This document shows, piece by piece, positions 29,470-64,000 of a stretch of 64,000 nucleotides of DNA (positions are counted from its first letter, which is position 1; the number at the start of each line of letters is the position of its first letter). The notes under the pieces were generated by a model. It was not told the DNA's origin and searched no databases. It saw only the letters and a list, made by a program, of their open reading frames with translations. This DNA is from Planctomycetota bacterium. Its GTDB lineage: Bacteria > Planctomycetota > PLA2 > JAEUHO01. The position numbers and the translations under genes were made by a program. The stretch spans positions 2,784,001-2,848,000 of the forward strand of contig CBDCTJ010000007.1 of the NCBI GenBank assembly GCA_965222115.1. The letters run 5' to 3'.

Positions 29470-29684
29470 CTCACGCAGAGGCGCCGGGTTGCGGAGGCGC
29501 AGAGCGCAGGTTTGAGGAACGCCGGACGAATCGATCATCGAATGCTCATCCTTGAGTCCGGGTGAGGGGGAACGGTTCACGGGTGACGGGGATACGGGGA
29601 AACTCAATCCCTATGAAGCCGAGCTTGCAGCCAACGGAACACACTTCTCACTGCGCCTCCGCGCCCTCAGGGGCTCTGCGTGAG
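29470..29684. repeat. Element with imperfect ~33-bp terminal inverted repeats enclosing a dispersed-repeat core
   Basis: CTCACGCAGAG..GCGGAGGCGCAG (29470-29502) pairs with CTGCGCCTCCGC..CTCTGCGTGAG (29651-29684); core GAATCGATCATCGAATGCTCATCCTTGAGTCCGGG starts at 29528. Confidence 0.75.
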
Positions 29685-29731
29685 GTAACCCACTCCCGAC
29701 GAACACGTACTCGATTCGAACGCAATAGAGT

Positions 29732-30070
29732 TCACTCATCATCCGTTGCCCACACCACATCAAGCGCCCCCATTCGCCGCAGCAGCCCGACCAATCGGCG
29801 ATGCGTTTCACGGGTTTCGAGCGCAATGGAAACGACGCGTCCGACAGCCTTTGCATGGGGCACGAACTCCCAATCGGTGTCTTCACTCAATATCCACGCG
29901 TACTCATCGGGATCGATTTCCTCAAACCCGTCCCATTGCAGCTCCGTTTCGCCATCCACCAACCGGCGAAACCACGCGTTCAATGCATCCTGCGCTTCGA
30001 TGGCATGGGCATCGTCGCGGAAGGTGCCGCGGATGCCGGTGACGGGGGCCGCTTCATTCATGTCGAGCAT
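29732..30070 (-). CDS. Small acidic hypothetical protein coupled to comF
   Basis: ATG overlaps the comF stop (TAATG); globular-looking 112 aa. Confidence 0.65.
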   Translation of the reverse strand: MLDMNEAAPVTGIRGTFRDDAHAIEAQDALNAWFRRLVDGETELQWDGFEEIDPDEYAWILSEDTDWEFVPHAKAVGRVVSIALETRETHRRLVGLLRRMGALDVVWATDDE

Positions 30071-30864
30071 TATGCACCACGTTCTGTGCGACAGGCCACG
30101 ACAACGACCACGCGAAGTGCGCCCGCGCGAAGCAGTGCATAGGAGACTGCGCGGGCGGTGGCGCCGCTCGTGATCACGTCGTCGACCAGCATGACGCATC
30201 GCCCCGCTACCGCACGGCGCTTCGCGACAAAGCCACCGCGTGGTCCCAGTCGTCGCTGGGCTTTGGAACGTGTCGTTTGAGGCGGGCCGTGGACGCGTCG
30301 CTTTACCGCTCGCGAGGCAACTGGAATGTGCAAACGCCGACCAAGTGCCTTGGCCAGTAACGCGGATTGGTTGTAGCCCCGTTCTCGCATTCGCTTCGCG
30401 GATAGTGGAACTGGAACCAACAGGTCGCCGGGAATGTCGGCGGCTCGAAGCGCCTCCTCCATCGGACCCGCAAGCATCTCAGCAAGATGGCAGCCGTCTC
30501 GAAACTTGAGCCCAAGGACAAGTTGTCGTGCGCTTTCTCGATACGAGTAGGGCGCAATCACTCCGGCAATCACGTCTCGCCGACGCGGCACACGCGACCC
30601 GATCGCATCGAGCTCTGCTGAGGGTCCCAAACATTGCGGGCAGGACTCAAGCGACACACGCGGCCCCACACTCCTCCCGCAACGTCGACATCGCGGTCGC
30701 CACATAGGCAGTGCCGCCATGCAGCCATCGCAGAATCGACGATCAGGTGCATCCCACGTGTCCACGCCGCAGAGCACACAGCGAGGTGGAAACCACGTGT
30801 CGATGAGGCCGGTGATGAACGCTTTGATCACAGGCCTACTACGAACCAAACCTCGATTGGCCAC
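30070..30864 (-). CDS. comF: ComF family (double zinc ribbon + PRTase)
   Basis: CVLC/CDGC/CRRC/CPQC, VPVPLS..RERGYNQS, LVDDVITSGAT. Confidence 0.9.
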   Translation of the reverse strand: MANRGLVRSRPVIKAFITGLIDTWFPPRCVLCGVDTWDAPDRRFCDGCMAALPMWRPRCRRCGRSVGPRVSLESCPQCLGPSAELDAIGSRVPRRRDVIAGVIAPYSYRESARQLVLGLKFRDGCHLAEMLAGPMEEALRAADIPGDLLVPVPLSAKRMRERGYNQSALLAKALGRRLHIPVASRAVKRRVHGPPQTTRSKAQRRLGPRGGFVAKRRAVAGRCVMLVDDVITSGATARAVSYALLRAGALRVVVVVACRTERGA

Positions 30865-30904
30865 ATCTCGTTGCTAGCGGCAGGTTGTTCAAGTTGTCCG
30901 TACG

Positions 30905-31029
30905 CCGTTTCCCCTTACCCCGTATACCCGTCCCCCGAACTCAAGGATGAATGTTCAACGATCGATTCTTCCAGCGTTTAAGACGTGGACGTGGACGTGG
31001 ACGTGGACGTGGACGTGGACGTGGACGTG
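30905..31029 (-). repeat. Dispersed repeat copy with (GACGTG)8 tract
   Basis: Eight exact hexamers at 30982-31029; reverse strand continues GAATCGATCGTTGAACATTCATCCTTGAGTTCGGG plus a G-rich tail. Confidence 0.88.
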
Positions 31030-31074
31030 TTGGTCCAGTCTGCGCATGTCTTCGATACACGATGCCTCTAGATT

Positions 31075-31389
31075 GGTCCTTCGATGCGCACTACGCGGAT
31101 CAAAGATCCGCTAGTGCTTACTCAGGATCTCCGGTCAATGGGCATAGCCCATTGACCTCCGACACGCCCCTTGAGGTTGAGATATCGCGTGTTGTAGGAA
31201 TCGACCCGTACACACCTCAGAAATTGAGACTATCTCAGGGGACCGCGCCTAAGGGAGACTCCATCTAGATTAGGCGTCAACATCGAATGGCGCGTGTCGG
31301 AGACAAGGAGGGTCGAAGACCCGACGTAGTCGGAGATCCTGAGTAAGTCCAAGCGGACCAAGGGTCCGCGCTGGACGCATCGAAGGGCC
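31075..31389. ncRNA. Candidate large structured ncRNA or ssDNA element, family unknown
   Basis: Nested long-range helices 31075-31088/31376-31389, 31117-31133/31331-31347 and 31157-31167/31292-31302, plus side hairpins; no convincing ORF; strand unresolved. Confidence 0.65.
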
Positions 31390-31448
31390 GAACTACGAAT
31401 TTCGTAAGTCACACGGAGACGATGAACTTGATACGTCAAATGGGCTAG

Positions 31449-32573
31449 TCAGACGTCATGAACCGTCCCAAGCGCCACAGCGCGTGTCGCGCCGGTTGCA
31501 CTCGGTAAGTTTCCGGGAAGCCCCAGGAGCCGTCGATCAGCAAGCAACGCAAAGCCCACGGCCTCTTTGGCGTCAATCCACGCATCGGGAAGCGTTCGAG
31601 TTTCGATGTCGAGCGCGCTCAGCTTCTCACTGATGCACTCCATCAGATAGCCATTGCGACAACCCCCACCGCTAAACAGAAGTCTTCTGAGTTCCTGATG
31701 ACGAATGAGCACATGGTTCTCAATGCCATCGCGGAGAACTTCGGCTGTGAATTCGGTTGCAGTCGCCACTAGAACTTCGGGAGGCACGTCAGGATGCTTA
31801 CGCTTGATTGCCTGAACGAGTGCGGGGCCAAACGTGTCGTAGCCCGCGCTCTTGGGCGGCGACGCAGCAATCCACTTCGCCCGCGACGTATAGAGTGACA
31901 ACAAGACATCTTCCGAAACTGTTGTTGCGCGTGCTATGGCGCCGTCTTTATCAAATCGAGGATGCCCTTCCGTATCGGATGCGAATGCGTCGATCAGTGC
32001 ATTGGCCGGCCCAATGTCGAAACCCAATACGTCGCTCCGGCGCGGCGTCAATACGGTCATGTTGGCGATACTGCCTAGATTCACACAGCCACGAAGTTCA
32101 TGATCGTCACGATAAAGCAACCAATCCACTAGGGGAATGAGCGGCGCGCCCTCGCCCCCCTCCGCAATGTCACGCGGGCGAAAGTCACACACCGTGCGAA
32201 TCTTCGTGCGGGCCGCCAAGATGTCACCGCGCCCAATCTGAAGTGTGCGTGCAGGTGCTTCGGCAGTCTTTGGTTGGTGAAAGAGCGTTTGTCCGTGGCT
32301 TCCTATGGCGTGAATGTCGCGATAGGTGGTCCCAGCACGTTCGAGAAACTCAAGTACCCACTGGCTCCAACACTCTGCTAAGTCGAAATCCAAGAGCGAA
32401 ACGTCTTCAACGGTTCCAGAACGTGCACGTTGCATTCGTGCTCGAAGTTGCGCGTCATAATCTCGAGTGTCATGAGCAACGAGGTCGACTTGAGGCCGTT
32501 CAGGCGCTCCTTGGATGCGCACAAGCGCGAGATCGAGCCCGTCCATGCTCATACCCGACATGAGCCCCACCAC
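31449..32573 (-). CDS. anmK: Anhydro-N-acetylmuramic acid kinase
   Basis: GLMSGMSMDG, GSHGQT, GGEGAPL, FDIGPAN, KEAVGFA, NLPSATGA; start uncertain (GTG at 32573 chosen). Confidence 0.9.
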   Translation of the reverse strand: MVGLMSGMSMDGLDLALVRIQGAPERPQVDLVAHDTRDYDAQLRARMQRARSGTVEDVSLLDFDLAECWSQWVLEFLERAGTTYRDIHAIGSHGQTLFHQPKTAEAPARTLQIGRGDILAARTKIRTVCDFRPRDIAEGGEGAPLIPLVDWLLYRDDHELRGCVNLGSIANMTVLTPRRSDVLGFDIGPANALIDAFASDTEGHPRFDKDGAIARATTVSEDVLLSLYTSRAKWIAASPPKSAGYDTFGPALVQAIKRKHPDVPPEVLVATATEFTAEVLRDGIENHVLIRHQELRRLLFSGGGCRNGYLMECISEKLSALDIETRTLPDAWIDAKEAVGFALLADRRLLGLPGNLPSATGATRAVALGTVHDV

Positions 32574-32661
32574 GAGTCGAGGCGCTATGTCCTCGGAAGC
32601 GCTACCAGCATTTGTGGGTGCGAATGACAGCGTGAGTCTCCGGTTGCGGTACGGTGTCGCT

Positions 32662-33204
32662 ATGAAAGCAACCGTAGTCGCTGTCCACAAGAGCCCCACA
32701 CACCAAATCTCAAAGTCCACTGCAGCGTCCATCAAGCTCATCGAGGAATTTGGCGTGGAAGGTGACGTGCATGCCGGCCCTACCGTGAAGCATCGCTCGC
32801 GGGCCGCGAAGCACCCGGAGCTCAAGAATCTGCGTCAAGTGCATCTCATGCATGCGGAGTTGTTTGATGAACTCGCAGCCCAGGGGCACCAGGTGCTGCC
32901 CGGACAAATGGGTGAGAACGTGACAGTCAAGGGTGTTGCGTTGCTGGATCTACCGCGAGGAACACGCCTACGTATTGGACCTCATGCGGAGGTCGAACTC
33001 ACGGGTCTACGAAATCCTTGTTCGCAGCTCGACGGACTTTCTCCGGGGCTGAAAGAAGCGGTACTTGAGAAAACACCCGAGGGCGGACTGCTGCGCAAGA
33101 CCGGAGTCATGGCAGTCGTCATCCATGGTGGCGTGGTGAAAACGGACGATTTGGTTCAGGTCGCGCTTCCGGATGGCACGCCGAGACCACTTGAGCCCGT
33201 GTAG
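32662..33204 (+). CDS. MOSC domain protein
   Basis: GVEGDVHAG, NLRQVHL, MGENVT, RNPC, GVMAVV..GG. Confidence 0.9.
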   Translation: MKATVVAVHKSPTHQISKSTAASIKLIEEFGVEGDVHAGPTVKHRSRAAKHPELKNLRQVHLMHAELFDELAAQGHQVLPGQMGENVTVKGVALLDLPRGTRLRIGPHAEVELTGLRNPCSQLDGLSPGLKEAVLEKTPEGGLLRKTGVMAVVIHGGVVKTDDLVQVALPDGTPRPLEPV

Positions 33205-57654: not shown

Positions 57655-57890
57655 TCACGTCCACGTCCACGAACTGGCGCGAATCGATCATCGAGTGCTT
57701 AGGTCTGCAAATTCACACCCGGTACTTTTTCGCGGCTTTCGGTGCTCAATCGGTGTCGCTCGTATGCGGCTATCGCGCTCCTGCCGTCCGTTCTCCACGT
57801 CCACGCCCACGCCCACGCCCACGCCCACGAATTGGCGCGATACGGTCACCGGACGCTCACACTTGAGTCCGGTTGGCGGGTGACGGGGAG
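57655..57890 (+). repeat. Two copies (one truncated) of the dispersed hexamer-tract repeat
   Basis: About 3 hexamers + GCGCGAATCGATCATCG at 57655-57693; full copy 57738-57890 with (YCCACG)6. Confidence 0.88.
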
Positions 57891-62573: not shown

Positions 62574-62684
62574 TCCACGTCCACGTCCACGTCCACGTCC
62601 ACGTCCACGTCCACGAGCTGGCGTGAATCGACTATCGGACGCTCACACTTGAATCCGGGTCACGGGTTGCGGGTGACGGGAGAG
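62574..62684 (+). repeat. Dispersed repeat copy with (TCCACG)7
   Basis: Tract 62574-62615, then GAATCGACTATCGGACGCTCACACTTGAATCCGGG and a CGGGTNA-type tail. Confidence 0.88.
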
Positions 62685-62755
62685 CGCTACTGGATGACAC
62701 ACGCAATTTGCGCCCGGCACCAATCTGCGGGAATCGGCGCATGAATGGGAGCGCC

Positions 62756-63142
62756 TCACTCCCTCCAACGGCGGATTAGTGCATTCAACATCGCGCGAAC
62801 GCGATCTAGGTCGCGGAGCGCTGGTACTGCGCTCGCATCCGTGAGGATGCCCATCGCATCCATGAGGTCGAGTGCCGCCGCGGCCTCGACACACTCGCCG
62901 CGAGCGATAGAGAATGAACGGTGCTTGGCGCCCGCGCCAGCGCGCCCTATGCCTTCAGCGATGTTTAGGACGACGGCTGTAGAGGCTCGCCGAGCTTGGC
63001 TTGCAAGCTCGGCGTTGCCTCGCGGTAGCGATCCACAAAGCTGATGAATACTGGCAGCCGCGCGCCGCGCAATTCGATACACATCGAATCGTTCAAGCCG
63101 ACCCGCCGTGGAAGTAACCGAGAACTGTTTGCTGTGTGACAT
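62756..63142 (-). CDS. Four-helix-bundle protein (23S rRNA IVP / bAvd-like family)
   Basis: ERFDVY, LASQARRASTAVVLNIAEG, IARGECVE..AALD; GGAG RBS. Confidence 0.9.
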   Translation of the reverse strand: MSHSKQFSVTSTAGRLERFDVYRIARRAAASIHQLCGSLPRGNAELASQARRASTAVVLNIAEGIGRAGAGAKHRSFSIARGECVEAAAALDLMDAMGILTDASAVPALRDLDRVRAMLNALIRRWRE

Positions 63143-63273
63143 ACGAGAAGCTCCACGAGGAAACACCCGCGGGAATGCGAGTGCCTGCCCTCGCCCTCGT
63201 GGCGAATGGGGCATGCACGTAGCACTTCCCAAAGGGTGTTGCCCAGTGCACCTTCAAGTCACATAGCAATCAG

Positions 63274-63465
63274 TTCGGTGCTCAATCGGTGTCGCTCGTA
63301 TGCGGCTGTCGCGCTCCTGCCACCCGCTCTTCACGTCCACGTCCACGTCCACGTCCACGTCCACGTCCACGTCCACGTCCACGTCCACGTCCACGTCCAC
63401 GTTAGGGCGGCGCGAATCGATCATCGGACGCTCAAACTTGAGTATGGGTTCCGGGTGACGGGAAC
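63274..63465 (+). repeat. Full-length dispersed repeat copy with (CACGTC)~12
   Basis: 48-nt head matching 57738-57785 with one mismatch; tract 63332-63402; conserved core follows. Confidence 0.9.
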
Positions 63466-63671
63466 TTGGGCAACACCGCCGGGTGCCCCAGCGCCTTCGG
63501 TACGCGCGGGCGCCGCTTGTGATGGAACTCCAGCTTGAGAACGAGTTGTCGCGTTTGAGCGGGGCTTCCTCTGTACGACCCGCTCGCGTGCGCCCTCCTT
63601 CGCCTTCGGCTCCTTCACGAAGGGCACACGCGAGCAAACGGCTTGCGTTCCTTTCACGCTGGAGTTCCATC

Positions 63672-64000
63672 ATGACAAGCGCGTCTTCCACGCTCGAATA
63701 CCTCAAACGCTTCGATGTCTACCGTGCTTCGCAGGCCGCGGCGGTCGCGTGCGTCGCAATCTGCAATGCATGGCCTCGAGGCCACGCAAAGCTCGCCGAT
63801 CAACTCAGGCGCGCAAGTACAAGCGTGGCGCTTAACGTCGCCGAAGGCCTATCGAAGCGGCGGCCAGCCGAGAAGCGCAGGGCCTACGACATCGCACATG
63901 CCGAATGCACCGAAGCCATTGCCGCTCTACATCATGCGCTACTACTCGGACTCGCCAGCGACGCCGTGATCTCACGTGCGATGAACTCCCTGGAGCAATG
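63672..64000 (+). CDS. Second four-helix-bundle protein (truncated by the window end)
   Basis: Manual translation MTSASSTLEYLKRFDVYRAS..LADQLRRASTSVALNVAEG..IAHAECTEAIAAL; GGAG RBS; absent from the ORF track. Confidence 0.88.
   Translation, partial: MTSASSTLEYLKRFDVYRASQAAAVACVAICNAWPRGHAKLADQLRRASTSVALNVAEGLSKRRPAEKRRAYDIAHAECTEAIAALHHALLLGLASDAVISRAMNSLEQ

What the first reader, a model, noticed from the sequence alone, without database searches (positions are those of the whole stretch)
31075..31389. ~315-nt pseudo-symmetric structured element with stacked four-way junctions (candidate new large ncRNA)
Seen: P1 31075-31088/31376-31389 (14 bp, one G-U), P2 31117-31133/31331-31347 (17 bp perfect) and P3 31157-31167/31292-31302 (11 bp perfect). 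Between P1 and P2 each arm has a 28-nt hairpin (31089-31116; 31348-31375) with no linker, giving a perfect four-way junction. These two hairpins look like diverged inverse copies whose differences keep their own stems. Between P2 and P3 are a 10-bp hairpin (31134-31156) and a GGGTC-GAA-GACCC hairpin, forming a second junction. The apical domain adds TGAGATA/TATCTCA, CTCA/TGAG and CGCCTAA/TTAGGCG helices. No RNase P, SRP or hammerhead signature was found. It sits between anmK and comF next to a (GACGTG)8 tract. Inference: a structure-selected RNA or ssDNA such as a protein scaffold/decoy, a mobile RNA or a comF leader.
Basis: partly seen in the sequence, partly recalled or inferred. Interest (0 to 1): 0.88.

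Follow-up and report, generated by a model that had tools for sequence, protein, structure and literature searches.

The report
Inverted pair of genome-wide hairpin repeats
The large symmetric fold is real, but it arises because two copies of a roughly 100-base hairpin repeat, present about 42 times in this genome, sit back to back, so it looks like selfish repeat DNA rather than a new RNA gene.

Summary
The 315 nt fold far better than shuffles (z -13 as RNA; -11 on the other strand and as DNA).

The symmetry has a simple cause. The element is two inverted copies ("arms") of an interspersed repeat around a unique ~125-nt core.
- The core folds at chance (z -0.7).
- The genome holds 42 arms. 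Thirty-four are solo and cannot form P1-P3; four inverted pairs exist.
- Three pairs share the same layout and length (302-315 nt), but their cores cannot be aligned.
- All arms lie in or at the edge of intergenic DNA.

There is no Rfam match. No copy was found in 26 genomes of the order or 300 of the phylum. Yet the arm's first hairpin module, with conserved unpaired blocks and covarying stems, recurs in unrelated phyla. This is how mobile DNA is distributed.

Best reading: a REPIN/BIME/MITE-like doublet of an undescribed hairpin-repeat family. I infer, but have not shown, that it moves as single-stranded DNA.

One arm subfamily, (GTGGAC)n tracts and 18 cassettes carrying PF05635 genes cluster around the replication terminus, mostly oriented with replication. 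That pattern is the more interesting lead.

The parts
31059..31074 (+). Outer conserved flank of the left arm (ACG..CTCTAGATT type). The family homology reaches about 16 nt beyond P1.
   Evidence: Alignment of the outward flanks of 23 A-type and head-only arms: homology ends about 16-26 nt outside the head. The inverted repeat found by the repeat finder spans 31069-31133 / 31331-31395.
31075..31133 (+). Left arm, module 1: the head block CCTTCGATGCGCAC, hairpin 1 (GCGGATC-AAA-GATCCGC) and the block GCTTACTCAGG.
   Evidence: Best covariance-model hit in the genome, 78 bits. nhmmer E 6.9e-23. On its own it folds as an imperfect hairpin.
31134..31167 (+). Left arm, module 2: hairpin 2 of the 'X' type (GTCAATGGGC-ATA-GCCCATTGAC), then the CTCCGACACGC block (P3 5' half).
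   Evidence: 10 of 10 pairs. The same position carries varied hairpins in other arms.
31168..31291 (.). Its first and last ~12 nt still belong to the arms' inner ACGC..CTTGAG motif.
   Evidence: The 128-nt stretch 31166-31293 has only a self-hit in the genome and z -0.68. No similarity to the cores of the other three pairs (alignment A1).
31292..31389 (-). Right arm, inverted. Hairpin 2 is of the 'Y' type (GGGTC-GAA-GACCC with an extension). Hairpin 1 is the variant GCGGACC/GGTCCGC. Its head lies 60 nt after the anmK stop.
   Evidence: nhmmer E 1e-13, covariance model 67.6 bits. Its nearest relative is the solo arm C1:16446, not the left arm.
31390..31405 (-). Outer conserved flank of the right arm.
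30982..31029 (+). (GACGTG)8 hexamer tract, one of 40 (GTGGAC)n tracts in the genome.
   Evidence: the repeat finder D1; genome census.
30905..30981 (+). 'Tail' sequence, homologous to the stretch that precedes hexamer tracts in the PF05635 cassettes.
   Evidence: blastn between a cassette unit and this stretch: 74% identity over 94 nt, E 2e-9.
31449..32825 (-). anmK (upstream gene on the minus strand).
   Evidence: Pfam AnmK, E 5.1e-85.
30070..30864 (-). ComF-like gene (downstream gene on the minus strand).
   Evidence: Pfam DZR_2 E 3.1e-10 and Pribosyltran E 3e-06.

Best explanation
The 315-nt element is an inverted doublet of an interspersed, intergenic hairpin repeat, not a stand-alone RNA gene.

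Each arm is about 95-110 nt and is a unit of its own. It runs: an outer ACGCGCCTCTTGATTC-type flank; module 1; module 2; and an inner ACGCG.CTTGAG motif.
- Module 1 is a basal stem, a conserved internal loop, a second stem and the variable hairpin 1.
- Module 2 is a second, exchangeable hairpin.

Two arms facing each other make P1, P2 and P3 by default. Their own hairpins become the side branches of the 'four-way junctions'.

I infer that the family is or was non-autonomous mobile DNA. The hairpin modules would be recognised in single-stranded form by an enzyme supplied in trans. The genome encodes two Y1/HUH transposase-like proteins, which are the candidates.

The element lies between anmK and the comF-like gene, on the same strand as both. 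If read-through transcription crosses it, the RNA would form a very stable long irregular hairpin. That could act as an RNase III substrate or an exonuclease block. I regard this as a side effect typical of REP/BIME elements, not its reason for existing.

Shown here: the repeat nature, the solo arms, the lack of core conservation, hairpin covariation, and the patchy distribution across genomes. Inferred: mobility, the enzyme, and any RNA-level effect.
For: 1. Copy number. blastn gives 66 matches that merge into 38 loci. nhmmer converges on 42 arms (36, 42, 42 over three rounds). A covariance model of module 1 finds 38.
2. Only 8 of the 42 arms form 4 head-outward pairs. None of 25 solo arms tested has a partner remnant within 600 nt (best E 0.96).
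3. In 12 comparisons (6 core pairs, both orientations), no core exceeds the best of 200 shuffles. The best case ties it, with 3 of 200 shuffles as high. The window core is unique in the genome and folds at chance (z -0.68).
4. The two arms of a pair are not each other's nearest relatives: ranks 30 and 12 of 32 for the window pair.
5. Folding is strand-symmetric and as strong for DNA.
6. Solo arms fold on their own, with z from -1.7 to -5.7 over 10 arms on both strands.
7. Hairpin 1 is a perfect 7-bp stem in 31 of 42 arms, with five fully complementary variants in 15, 8, 5, 2 and 1 arms.
8. The stems of module 1 covary over 28 sequences from G000 and other phyla. 81.8% of cells are paired against 73.3 +/- 1.4 in shuffles (0 of 500 as high) and 20-49% when the partner is slid. 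34 cells are changed on both sides against 16.4 (0 of 500).
9. Distribution.
   - blastn finds none in 30 relatives.
   - The motif pattern finds none in 300 other genomes of the phylum.
   - The covariance model finds none in 26 other genomes of the order.
   - The 25-base motif is nevertheless found exactly in 3 unrelated MAGs and on 7 metagenome contigs.
   - A looser pattern finds 1, 5 and 4 copies in those three genomes.
   - One of them holds a 280-nt inverted pair.
10. Arms are intergenic. Of the 20 arms whose head-side gene lies within 100 nt, 15 sit just after a stop codon and 5 next to a start. This uses my own rough gene calls.
11. There is no Rfam family at E<=1.
12. Two Y1_Tnp genes are present. 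Four to five composite repeats fuse the arm's head and hairpin 1 directly to the hairpin modules that flank the IS200-like gene.
13. REPINs are defined as two inverted REPs with a spacer that use a RAYT (abstract of PMC3337134, seen in the listing). REP dimers and mosaic clusters are described in PMC3733652 (passages).
Against: - No direct evidence of movement. No empty site or insertion polymorphism was seen: the only runs that hold the stretch carry the same sequence, and no genome of the same genus was available.
- No target-site duplication.
- Neither Y1 gene is flanked by arms. Each has its own, different flanking repeats.
- Arms are far larger and more complex than canonical 20-40-nt REPs.
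- Hairpins 1 and 2 are unlike each other, whereas the two ends of an IS200/IS605 element resemble each other.
- Three pairs keep the same layout and almost the same length (315, 302, 314 nt) with unalignable cores. Plain MITE copying does not explain this. It hints at a constraint on spacing or on the doublet as a unit.
- Arm conservation could reflect a host function (RNA or DNA) rather than mobility.
- Expression could not be examined.
Confidence: 0.78

Rival explanations
1. A genuine structured non-coding RNA. The whole 315-nt fold would be the functional unit, for example a protein scaffold, a processing signal or a comF leader.
For: Extreme stability (z -13). Hairpin covariation. Three elements share the layout and length. 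It lies on a possible anmK-comF co-transcript. No known Rfam family.
Against: 34 of 42 arms are solo. The core folds at chance and is not conserved. Folding is equal on both strands and as DNA. There is no G-U asymmetry between strands: 29 against 21. No promoter-like or terminator-like site lies in 30700-31600. None was found in 26 genomes of the order.
Confidence: 0.06
2. The arms are single-stranded-DNA hairpin recombination sites, working like integron attC sites or HUH end hairpins, at the borders of small gene cassettes. The window doublet would be two such sites left without a cassette.
For: - B-type arms stand in direct orientation between PF05635 cassettes, e.g. arm-hb2-tract-arm at C7:2668611-2669839 and an arm at each end of the stretch C7:2676662-2681214.
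- In an unrelated Acidobacteria MAG, module copies in direct orientation flank a small GIY-YIG gene next to a tRNA.
- Module 1 has the attC-like layout of a basal stem, a conserved internal loop, a second stem and a variable tip. The comparison with attC rests on recall.
- Orientation follows the replication direction for 15 of 19 B arms and 17 of 18 PF05635 genes.
Against: No integron-type integrase or other recombinase sits beside the arrays. Of 7 Phage_integrase hits, the nearest is 1.5 kb from one arm. The cassettes are scattered over 0.7 Mb, not in one array. The attC R-box consensus is not evident (recalled, not scored). A-type arms, including the window's, do not border cassettes.
Confidence: 0.1
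3. Host-recruited chromosome elements of the terminus region. They would be polar sites acting in replication termination, segregation or Ter-domain organisation, and the window doublet would be a degenerate member.
For: - The GC-skew maximum and a dif-like site lie at C7:2.77 Mb.
- 28 of 42 arms lie in C7:2.27-3.07 Mb.
- 34 of 40 hexamer tracts lie in C7:2.27-2.94 Mb.
- All 18 PF05635 genes lie in C7:2.27-2.85 Mb.
- The G-rich strand of the tracts is on the leading strand in 34 of 40.
Against: - A-type arms, as in the window, show no polarity (about 8 conform and 7 do not; my count).
- The window's own tract is one of the 6 that do not conform.
- Polarity and clustering near the terminus are also expected from single-strand transposition and from weak selection near the terminus.
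- Linked features are not independent counts.
- The family was not found in relatives.
Confidence: 0.04

Closest known systems
REP / BIME elements and REPINs with RAYT (Y1/HUH) transposases
   Same: Intergenic, multi-copy imperfect palindromes with compensatory stem changes. They occur as singletons and as inverted head-to-head doublets that fold into long hairpins, and as heterodimers of two hairpin types. They lie between genes and often just after stop codons. The genome encodes single-copy Y1 transposase-like genes (PMC3733652 passages; PMC3337134 abstract).
   Different: The unit is about 100 nt with two different hairpins and long conserved unpaired blocks, not 20-40 nt. There is no GTAG tag. 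The spacer of the doublet is ~125 nt and not conserved. Neither Y1 gene is flanked by arms. Copy number is low (42).
MITEs (miniature inverted-repeat transposable elements)
   Same: About 300 nt, long terminal inverted repeats, non-coding, several copies, a strong fold-back structure.
   Different: No target-site duplication. The cores of the copies are unrelated. Most 'terminal repeats' occur alone. No parent insertion sequence with these ends was found.
23S rRNA intervening sequences (IVS) that carry a PF05635 / S23p ORF
   Same: A selfish-looking element with terminal inverted repeats that form a long stem (28 bp, dG -143 kcal/mol in Coxiella) cleaved by RNase III, and linked to PF05635 genes (PMC4990558 passages). 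Here one arm subfamily borders PF05635 cassettes.
   Different: The window element has no ORF and is not in an rRNA gene. The PF05635 cassettes here are bordered by arms in direct, not inverted, orientation.
IS200/IS605-type ends and their ORF-less derivatives
   Same: Recognition through subterminal hairpins rather than terminal inverted repeats, no duplication, and orientation tied to the replication direction (abstract of PMC6006769, seen in the listing; B arms 15 of 19). A TTGAT-like word lies just outside the head of A arms. Its likeness to a known IS target word is recalled, not tested.
   Different: The two hairpins of an arm are unlike each other. No TnpA gene is bounded by arms. A-type arms show no polarity.

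Membership tests
Any Rfam 15 RNA family | Covariance-model match | tested here: not met
   0 matches at E<=1 in window 29500-33000. In 9 related or external loci (55,029 bases), only a tmRNA and a tRNA reach the gathering score.
REP / REPIN-RAYT system | Short (20-40 nt) imperfect palindrome with a conserved GTAG (or CGTC) tag | tested here: not met
   The unit is ~95-110 nt with two hairpins. No GTAG lies at the conserved ends. B arms abut ACGTCCAC, but they lack the 8-9-bp stem with a 4-5-nt loop described for CGTC repeats (PMC3733652).
REP / REPIN-RAYT system | The repeats flank the single-copy RAYT gene | tested here: not met
   No arm was found next to either Y1 gene, even at E<=10. The flanks carry other repeats.
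REP / REPIN-RAYT system | Inverted doublets that form hairpins; intergenic; compensatory stem changes | tested here: met
   4 doublets, intergenic positions, five complementary hairpin-1 variants.
MITE | Target-site duplication flanking the terminal inverted repeats | tested here: not met
   The flanks of the 4 pairs show no direct repeat beyond the family's own conserved flank.
MITE | Copies homologous over their whole length, core included | tested here: not met
   The cores cannot be aligned.
Integron attC site | R''/R' core sites and a neighbouring integron integrase | tested here: inconclusive
   No tyrosine recombinase is adjacent to the arrays. The attC consensus was compared from memory only, not scored.
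23S rRNA IVS element | Inserted in a 23S rRNA helix; terminal inverted repeats enclosing a PF05635 ORF | tested here: not met
   The window element lies between anmK and the comF-like gene and has no ORF. PF05635 genes lie beside arms in direct orientation.
IS200/IS605-type element | Y1 transposase gene between the hairpin-bearing ends; similar hairpins at both ends | tested here: not met
   No arm flanks a Y1 gene. Hairpins 1 and 2 differ.

The most novel reading that the evidence does not exclude
The arm's module 1 would be the recognition hairpin of an undescribed, horizontally spreading single-strand DNA system. Its marks are a covarying stem around conserved TTCGATGCGC / GCTTACTCAG loops, often nested. 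The system would border and move small selfish gene cassettes: PF05635 four-helix-bundle genes here, and a GIY-YIG gene in an Acidobacteria MAG. It would insert in step with replication, which would explain why arms, hexamer tracts and all 18 PF05635 genes pile up with mostly one polarity on each side of the terminus. The 315-nt doublet would be an empty two-site relic of that system.
Probability: 0.12. Interest if true: 0.7.

Novelty: new member of a known kind. Interest (0 to 1): 0.3.

Why it matters
For the finding itself, a striking fold with a z-score of -13 can be produced entirely by two inverted copies of a hairpin repeat. A genome-wide copy census should therefore come before any claim of a new ncRNA.

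For biology, the family seems undescribed. It has no Rfam match and no hit in my text searches. It has several unusual traits:
- a unit of about 100 nt with two hairpins;
- doublets whose spacer length is kept while the spacer sequence is not;
- a core module shared by distant phyla but not found in the organism's own order;
- a link to PF05635 cassettes oriented around the replication terminus.

If the link to cassette mobility holds, it could help explain how the very common but unexplained PF05635 ('23S rRNA intervening sequence protein') genes spread.

Tried and rejected
- Known RNA families: Rfam at E<=1 found nothing. The external loci gave only a tmRNA and a tRNA.
- Hammerhead-like reading of the minus strand: I compared it by eye, from recall, and rejected it. 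No ribozyme model matched.
- Expression: no RNA holder was listed for the stretch. Laying 4 runs gave only contigs of the same organism. They were identical over the parts they cover and broke at the hexamer tract. There was no empty site. The one 'joint' is the paralogous element on contig C3.
- Phage and plasmid collections: no match. Viral contigs: 0 pattern matches.
- Partner remnants near solo arms: none.
- Homology or captured sequence in the cores: none in the genome.
- Target-site duplications: none seen.
- A transposase between or beside arms:
  - The 721-aa ORF between two direct arms has only CarboxypepD_reg-type domains.
  - Two of the six IS110-family copies lie near a tract or an arm (C7:2361441 and C7:2979898), but they are not bounded by arms.
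  - Small GIY-YIG genes are absent from G000; the only hit is a 608-aa ORF.
- dif / Xer reading of the head block: the resemblance is limited to about 8 bases and was dropped.
- Strand of action from G-U against A-C counts: 29 against 21, with opposite trends inside and outside G000, so no call.
- Literature:
  - Full-text searches for the motif strings returned only primers and aptamers.
  - Searches on REPIN/RAYT, PF05635 and IVS gave background papers only.
  - I found no description of this repeat in those searches. Supplementary files were not consulted.
- Organism name: not determined. I suspect Planctomycetota from the style of other repeats, but that is recall, not a test.

Full report
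- P1 has 13 Watson-Crick pairs plus one G-U of 14. P2 is 17 of 17, P3 is 11 of 11, and the hairpin at 31134-31156 is 10 of 10.
- The minimum-energy fold (-178.3 kcal/mol) contains these helices and the two 28-nt side hairpins.
- 100 dinucleotide shuffles give -105.3 +/- 5.6, so z = -13.0.
- The flanks are an AnmK gene (31449-32825, minus), a ComF-like gene (30070-30864, minus) and a (GACGTG)8 tract at 30982-31029.
- The fold is equally strong on the minus strand (z -11.3) and with DNA parameters (z -11.8).
- So all of the signal comes from a long inverted repeat (65-nt arms) whose halves carry their own hairpins.

**It is a repeat.**
- blastn of the 315 nt against the window's own genome gave 66 matches, which merge into 38 loci. 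The genome is G000: 4.55 Mb in 7 contigs, with the window at C7:2784001-2848000.
- Iterated nhmmer with one half of the element converged on 42 'arms'. A covariance model of the first module finds 38.
- Only eight arms form four head-outward pairs: the window element, C7:2420889-2421202 (314 nt), C3:313953-314254 (302 nt) and C1:520983-521569 (587 nt).
- The other 34 are solo. For 25 of these I searched 600 nt inward with all speed filters off and found no partner remnant (best E 0.96).
- A solo arm cannot form P1, P2 or P3, so those helices are not what the family conserves.

**Anatomy of an arm.** Reading head first, an arm runs:
- an outer flank of the ACGCGCCTCTTGATTC type, where homology ends 16-26 nt outside P1;
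- the head block with CCTTCGATGCGCAC;
- hairpin 1;
- the block GTGCTTACTCAGG;
- hairpin 2, which comes in several unrelated forms (X-like, and Y = GGGTC..GACCC);
- CTCCGAC;
- an inner ACGCG.CTTGAG motif that resembles the outer flank in direct orientation.

On its own, an arm folds as two units. Module 1 is a basal stem (for example ACCCT/AGGGT), an internal loop of conserved bases, the stem GCAC/GTGC and hairpin 1. Module 2 is hairpin 2. Over 10 arms and both strands, z runs from -1.7 to -5.7.

There are two subfamilies. The A type is the one in the window. The B type has a head that abuts ACGTCCAC and an inner end that runs into a (GTCCAC)n tract. A third form keeps only the head and hairpin 1, fused to other hairpin repeats.

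**The pairs.**
- Aligned in one orientation, the window element, C3:313953 and the reverse complement of C7:2420889 share the same order: X-like arm, core, second arm. The second arm is Y-type in 3 of the 4 pairs. Their lengths are close (315, 302, 314 nt).
- Their cores do not align (alignment A1). In 12 core comparisons, none beats the best of 200 shuffles. The closest case ties it, with 3 of 200 shuffles as high.
- The two arms of a pair are not each other's nearest relatives. For the window pair, the partners rank 30th and 12th of 32. The left arm is closest to the left arm of the C3 pair.
- So the doublet is a recurrent composite, much like a REP heterodimer.
- It is not a copy-and-paste MITE with a conserved body. 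Why the spacer keeps its length but not its sequence remains unexplained.

**Selection on the hairpins.**
- Hairpin 1 is a perfect 7-bp stem in 31 of 42 arms and exists in five fully complementary versions (15, 8, 5, 2 and 1 arms).
- I tested the two stems of module 1 on an alignment of 28 distinct module-1 sequences, 15 from G000 and 13 from other organisms.
  - 81.8% of cells are paired, against 73.3 +/- 1.4 in shuffles (0 of 500 as high) and 20-49% when the partner is slid.
  - 34 cells are changed on both sides, against 16.4 (0 of 500).
- Two cautions apply. The invariant blocks in that alignment are invariant by construction, because the foreign sequences were fetched with a pattern that contains them. 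The sequences are also related to one another.
- G-U pairs against A-C mismatches (29 against 21) do not single out a strand.
- Covariation of this kind is expected for hairpins read as single-stranded DNA as much as for RNA.

**Distribution.**
- The element was not found in 30 relatives by blastn, though no genome of the same genus was available.
- The motif pattern was not found in 300 other genomes of the phylum, while G000 has 19 exact matches.
- The covariance model found nothing in 26 other genomes of the order that are at least 85% complete.
- The 25 specified bases of the motif do occur exactly in three unrelated MAGs, titled Balneolaceae, Rikenellaceae and Acidobacterium.
- They also occur on seven metagenome contigs, two of which (L026, L028) show the same sequence as the Rikenellaceae MAG locus L022. 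They occur on no viral contig.
- A looser pattern finds 1, 5 and 4 copies in those three genomes, and none with the reversed control pattern. The internal hairpins differ between copies and are sometimes nested copies of the same TTCG...CTCAG loop motif.
- One of these genomes has a 280-nt head-outward pair around an unrelated AT-rich core.
- Another has three copies in direct orientation around a small GIY-YIG gene, next to a tRNA end.
- Two further copies lie just downstream of a tRNA and of a tmRNA, the latter beside what looked by eye like an integrase gene (not scanned).
- A patchy spread across phyla, with amplification in one lineage, is the pattern of mobile DNA, not of a vertically inherited RNA gene.

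**What might move it.**
- G000 encodes an IS200-like Y1 transposase: C7:1411691-1412035, 150 aa, NCBIfam transpos_IS200 at 66.6 bits against a cut-off of 55.
- It also encodes a longer RAYT-like protein: C7:1066413-1067438, Pfam Y1_Tnp at 33.6 bits, and NCBIfam REP_Tyr_transpos at 50.4 bits, below its cut-off of 80.
- Each gene is flanked by its own hairpin repeats, not by arms.
- The only physical link is that four or five composite repeats join the arm's head and hairpin 1 directly to the hairpins found beside the IS200-like gene.
- There are also six IS110-family genes and seven tyrosine-recombinase hits. None is bounded by arms.
- Mobilisation in trans by a Y1 enzyme is therefore an inference. 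I give it about 0.3 on its own.

**Context near the replication terminus (beyond the finding).**
- Cumulative GC skew on C7 has its minimum near 0.58 Mb and its maximum near 2.77 Mb. The single best dif-like site in 2.65-2.90 Mb lies at C7:2773937-2773964, 10 kb left of the window.
- 28 of the 42 arms lie in C7:2.27-3.07 Mb.
- 34 of the 40 (GTGGAC)n tracts lie in C7:2.27-2.94 Mb.
- All 18 PF05635 (23S_rRNA_IVP, four-helix-bundle) genes lie in C7:2.27-2.85 Mb.
- The PF05635 genes are of two types, of 124 and 128 aa. They sit in ~700-nt units at 77-91% identity over their shared length, bordered by tracts and B arms. Where two arms flank a unit, they are in direct orientation.
- The G-rich strand of the tracts is the leading strand in 34 of 40. 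B arms follow the same polarity in 15 of 19, and PF05635 genes in 17 of 18. These are my counts. The features are linked, so the counts are not independent.
- A-type arms, such as those in the window, show no polarity.
- The window's own tract is one of the six exceptions. The stretch just before it (30905-30981) is homologous to the cassette 'tail'.
- PF05635 ORFs are known from 23S rRNA intervening sequences. These are selfish-looking elements with terminal inverted repeats cleaved by RNase III, and their mobility has long been suspected (PMC4990558, passages read).

**Verdict.** The element is a REPIN/BIME/MITE-like inverted doublet of an apparently undescribed hairpin-repeat family. Its small modules are under structural constraint and its distribution points to mobile DNA. 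I could not test expression or mobility. The terminus-centred, polar system of PF05635 cassettes and the cross-phylum hairpin module are the parts that deserve follow-up.

Noticed in passing
window 62579-64000 (hb2 at 62759-63142 minus; hb1 from 63672 plus, cut by the window end; tracts at 57659-57670, 62579-62614, 63335-63400): Two PF05635 (23S_rRNA_IVP) genes sit in ~700-nt repeat units bordered by (GTCCAC)n tracts. All 18 such genes of the genome lie within C7:2.27-2.85 Mb around the terminus, and 17 of 18 share one polarity per replichore.
   Followed up: partly
genome-wide; window 30982-31029: There are 40 (GTGGAC)n tracts of up to 33 units, 34 of them in C7:2.27-2.94 Mb. The G-rich strand is on the leading strand in 34 of 40. 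The window's tract is one of the exceptions.
   Followed up: partly
G000 C7:2773937-2773964 (about 10 kb left of the window start): A dif-like site (18 of 28 matches to a recalled consensus) lies at the GC-skew maximum, so the window sits just beside the replication terminus.
   Followed up: partly
window ~30895-30915; also C7:2276539-2284313, C7:642022-669574, C3:482358-486673: Another ~32-nt conserved motif (GAAAAGTGTGGATTTTGCCCGTACACCGTAT type) is present. The loose pattern gave 21 matches against 6 for the reversed control. About 17 are good copies and they occur in local clusters. The window copy is only partial. Function unknown.
   Followed up: partly
G000 C7:1066413-1067438 and C7:1411691-1412035: Two Y1/HUH transposase-like genes each have their own flanking hairpin repeats (about 15-20 copies each). 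One of these repeats has replaced the head of a B arm at C3:440599.
   Followed up: partly
G000 C7:2361441-2361878 and C7:2979898-2980338: IS110-family transposase genes lie about 160 nt from a hexamer tract and about 500 nt from an A arm. These insertion sequences may target the repeats.
   Followed up: no
L046 (G318:C222:19720-22767), L047 (G317:C42:26665-29716), L029, L023: In unrelated MAGs the same hairpin module occurs in four settings: a 280-nt inverted pair within a tandem context; direct copies around a small GIY-YIG gene next to a tRNA end; and copies just downstream of a tRNA and of a tmRNA.
   Followed up: partly
G000 contig C6 (48 kb): This contig has 39.7% G+C against 55-59% for the other six contigs. 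It may be foreign or mis-binned.
   Followed up: no
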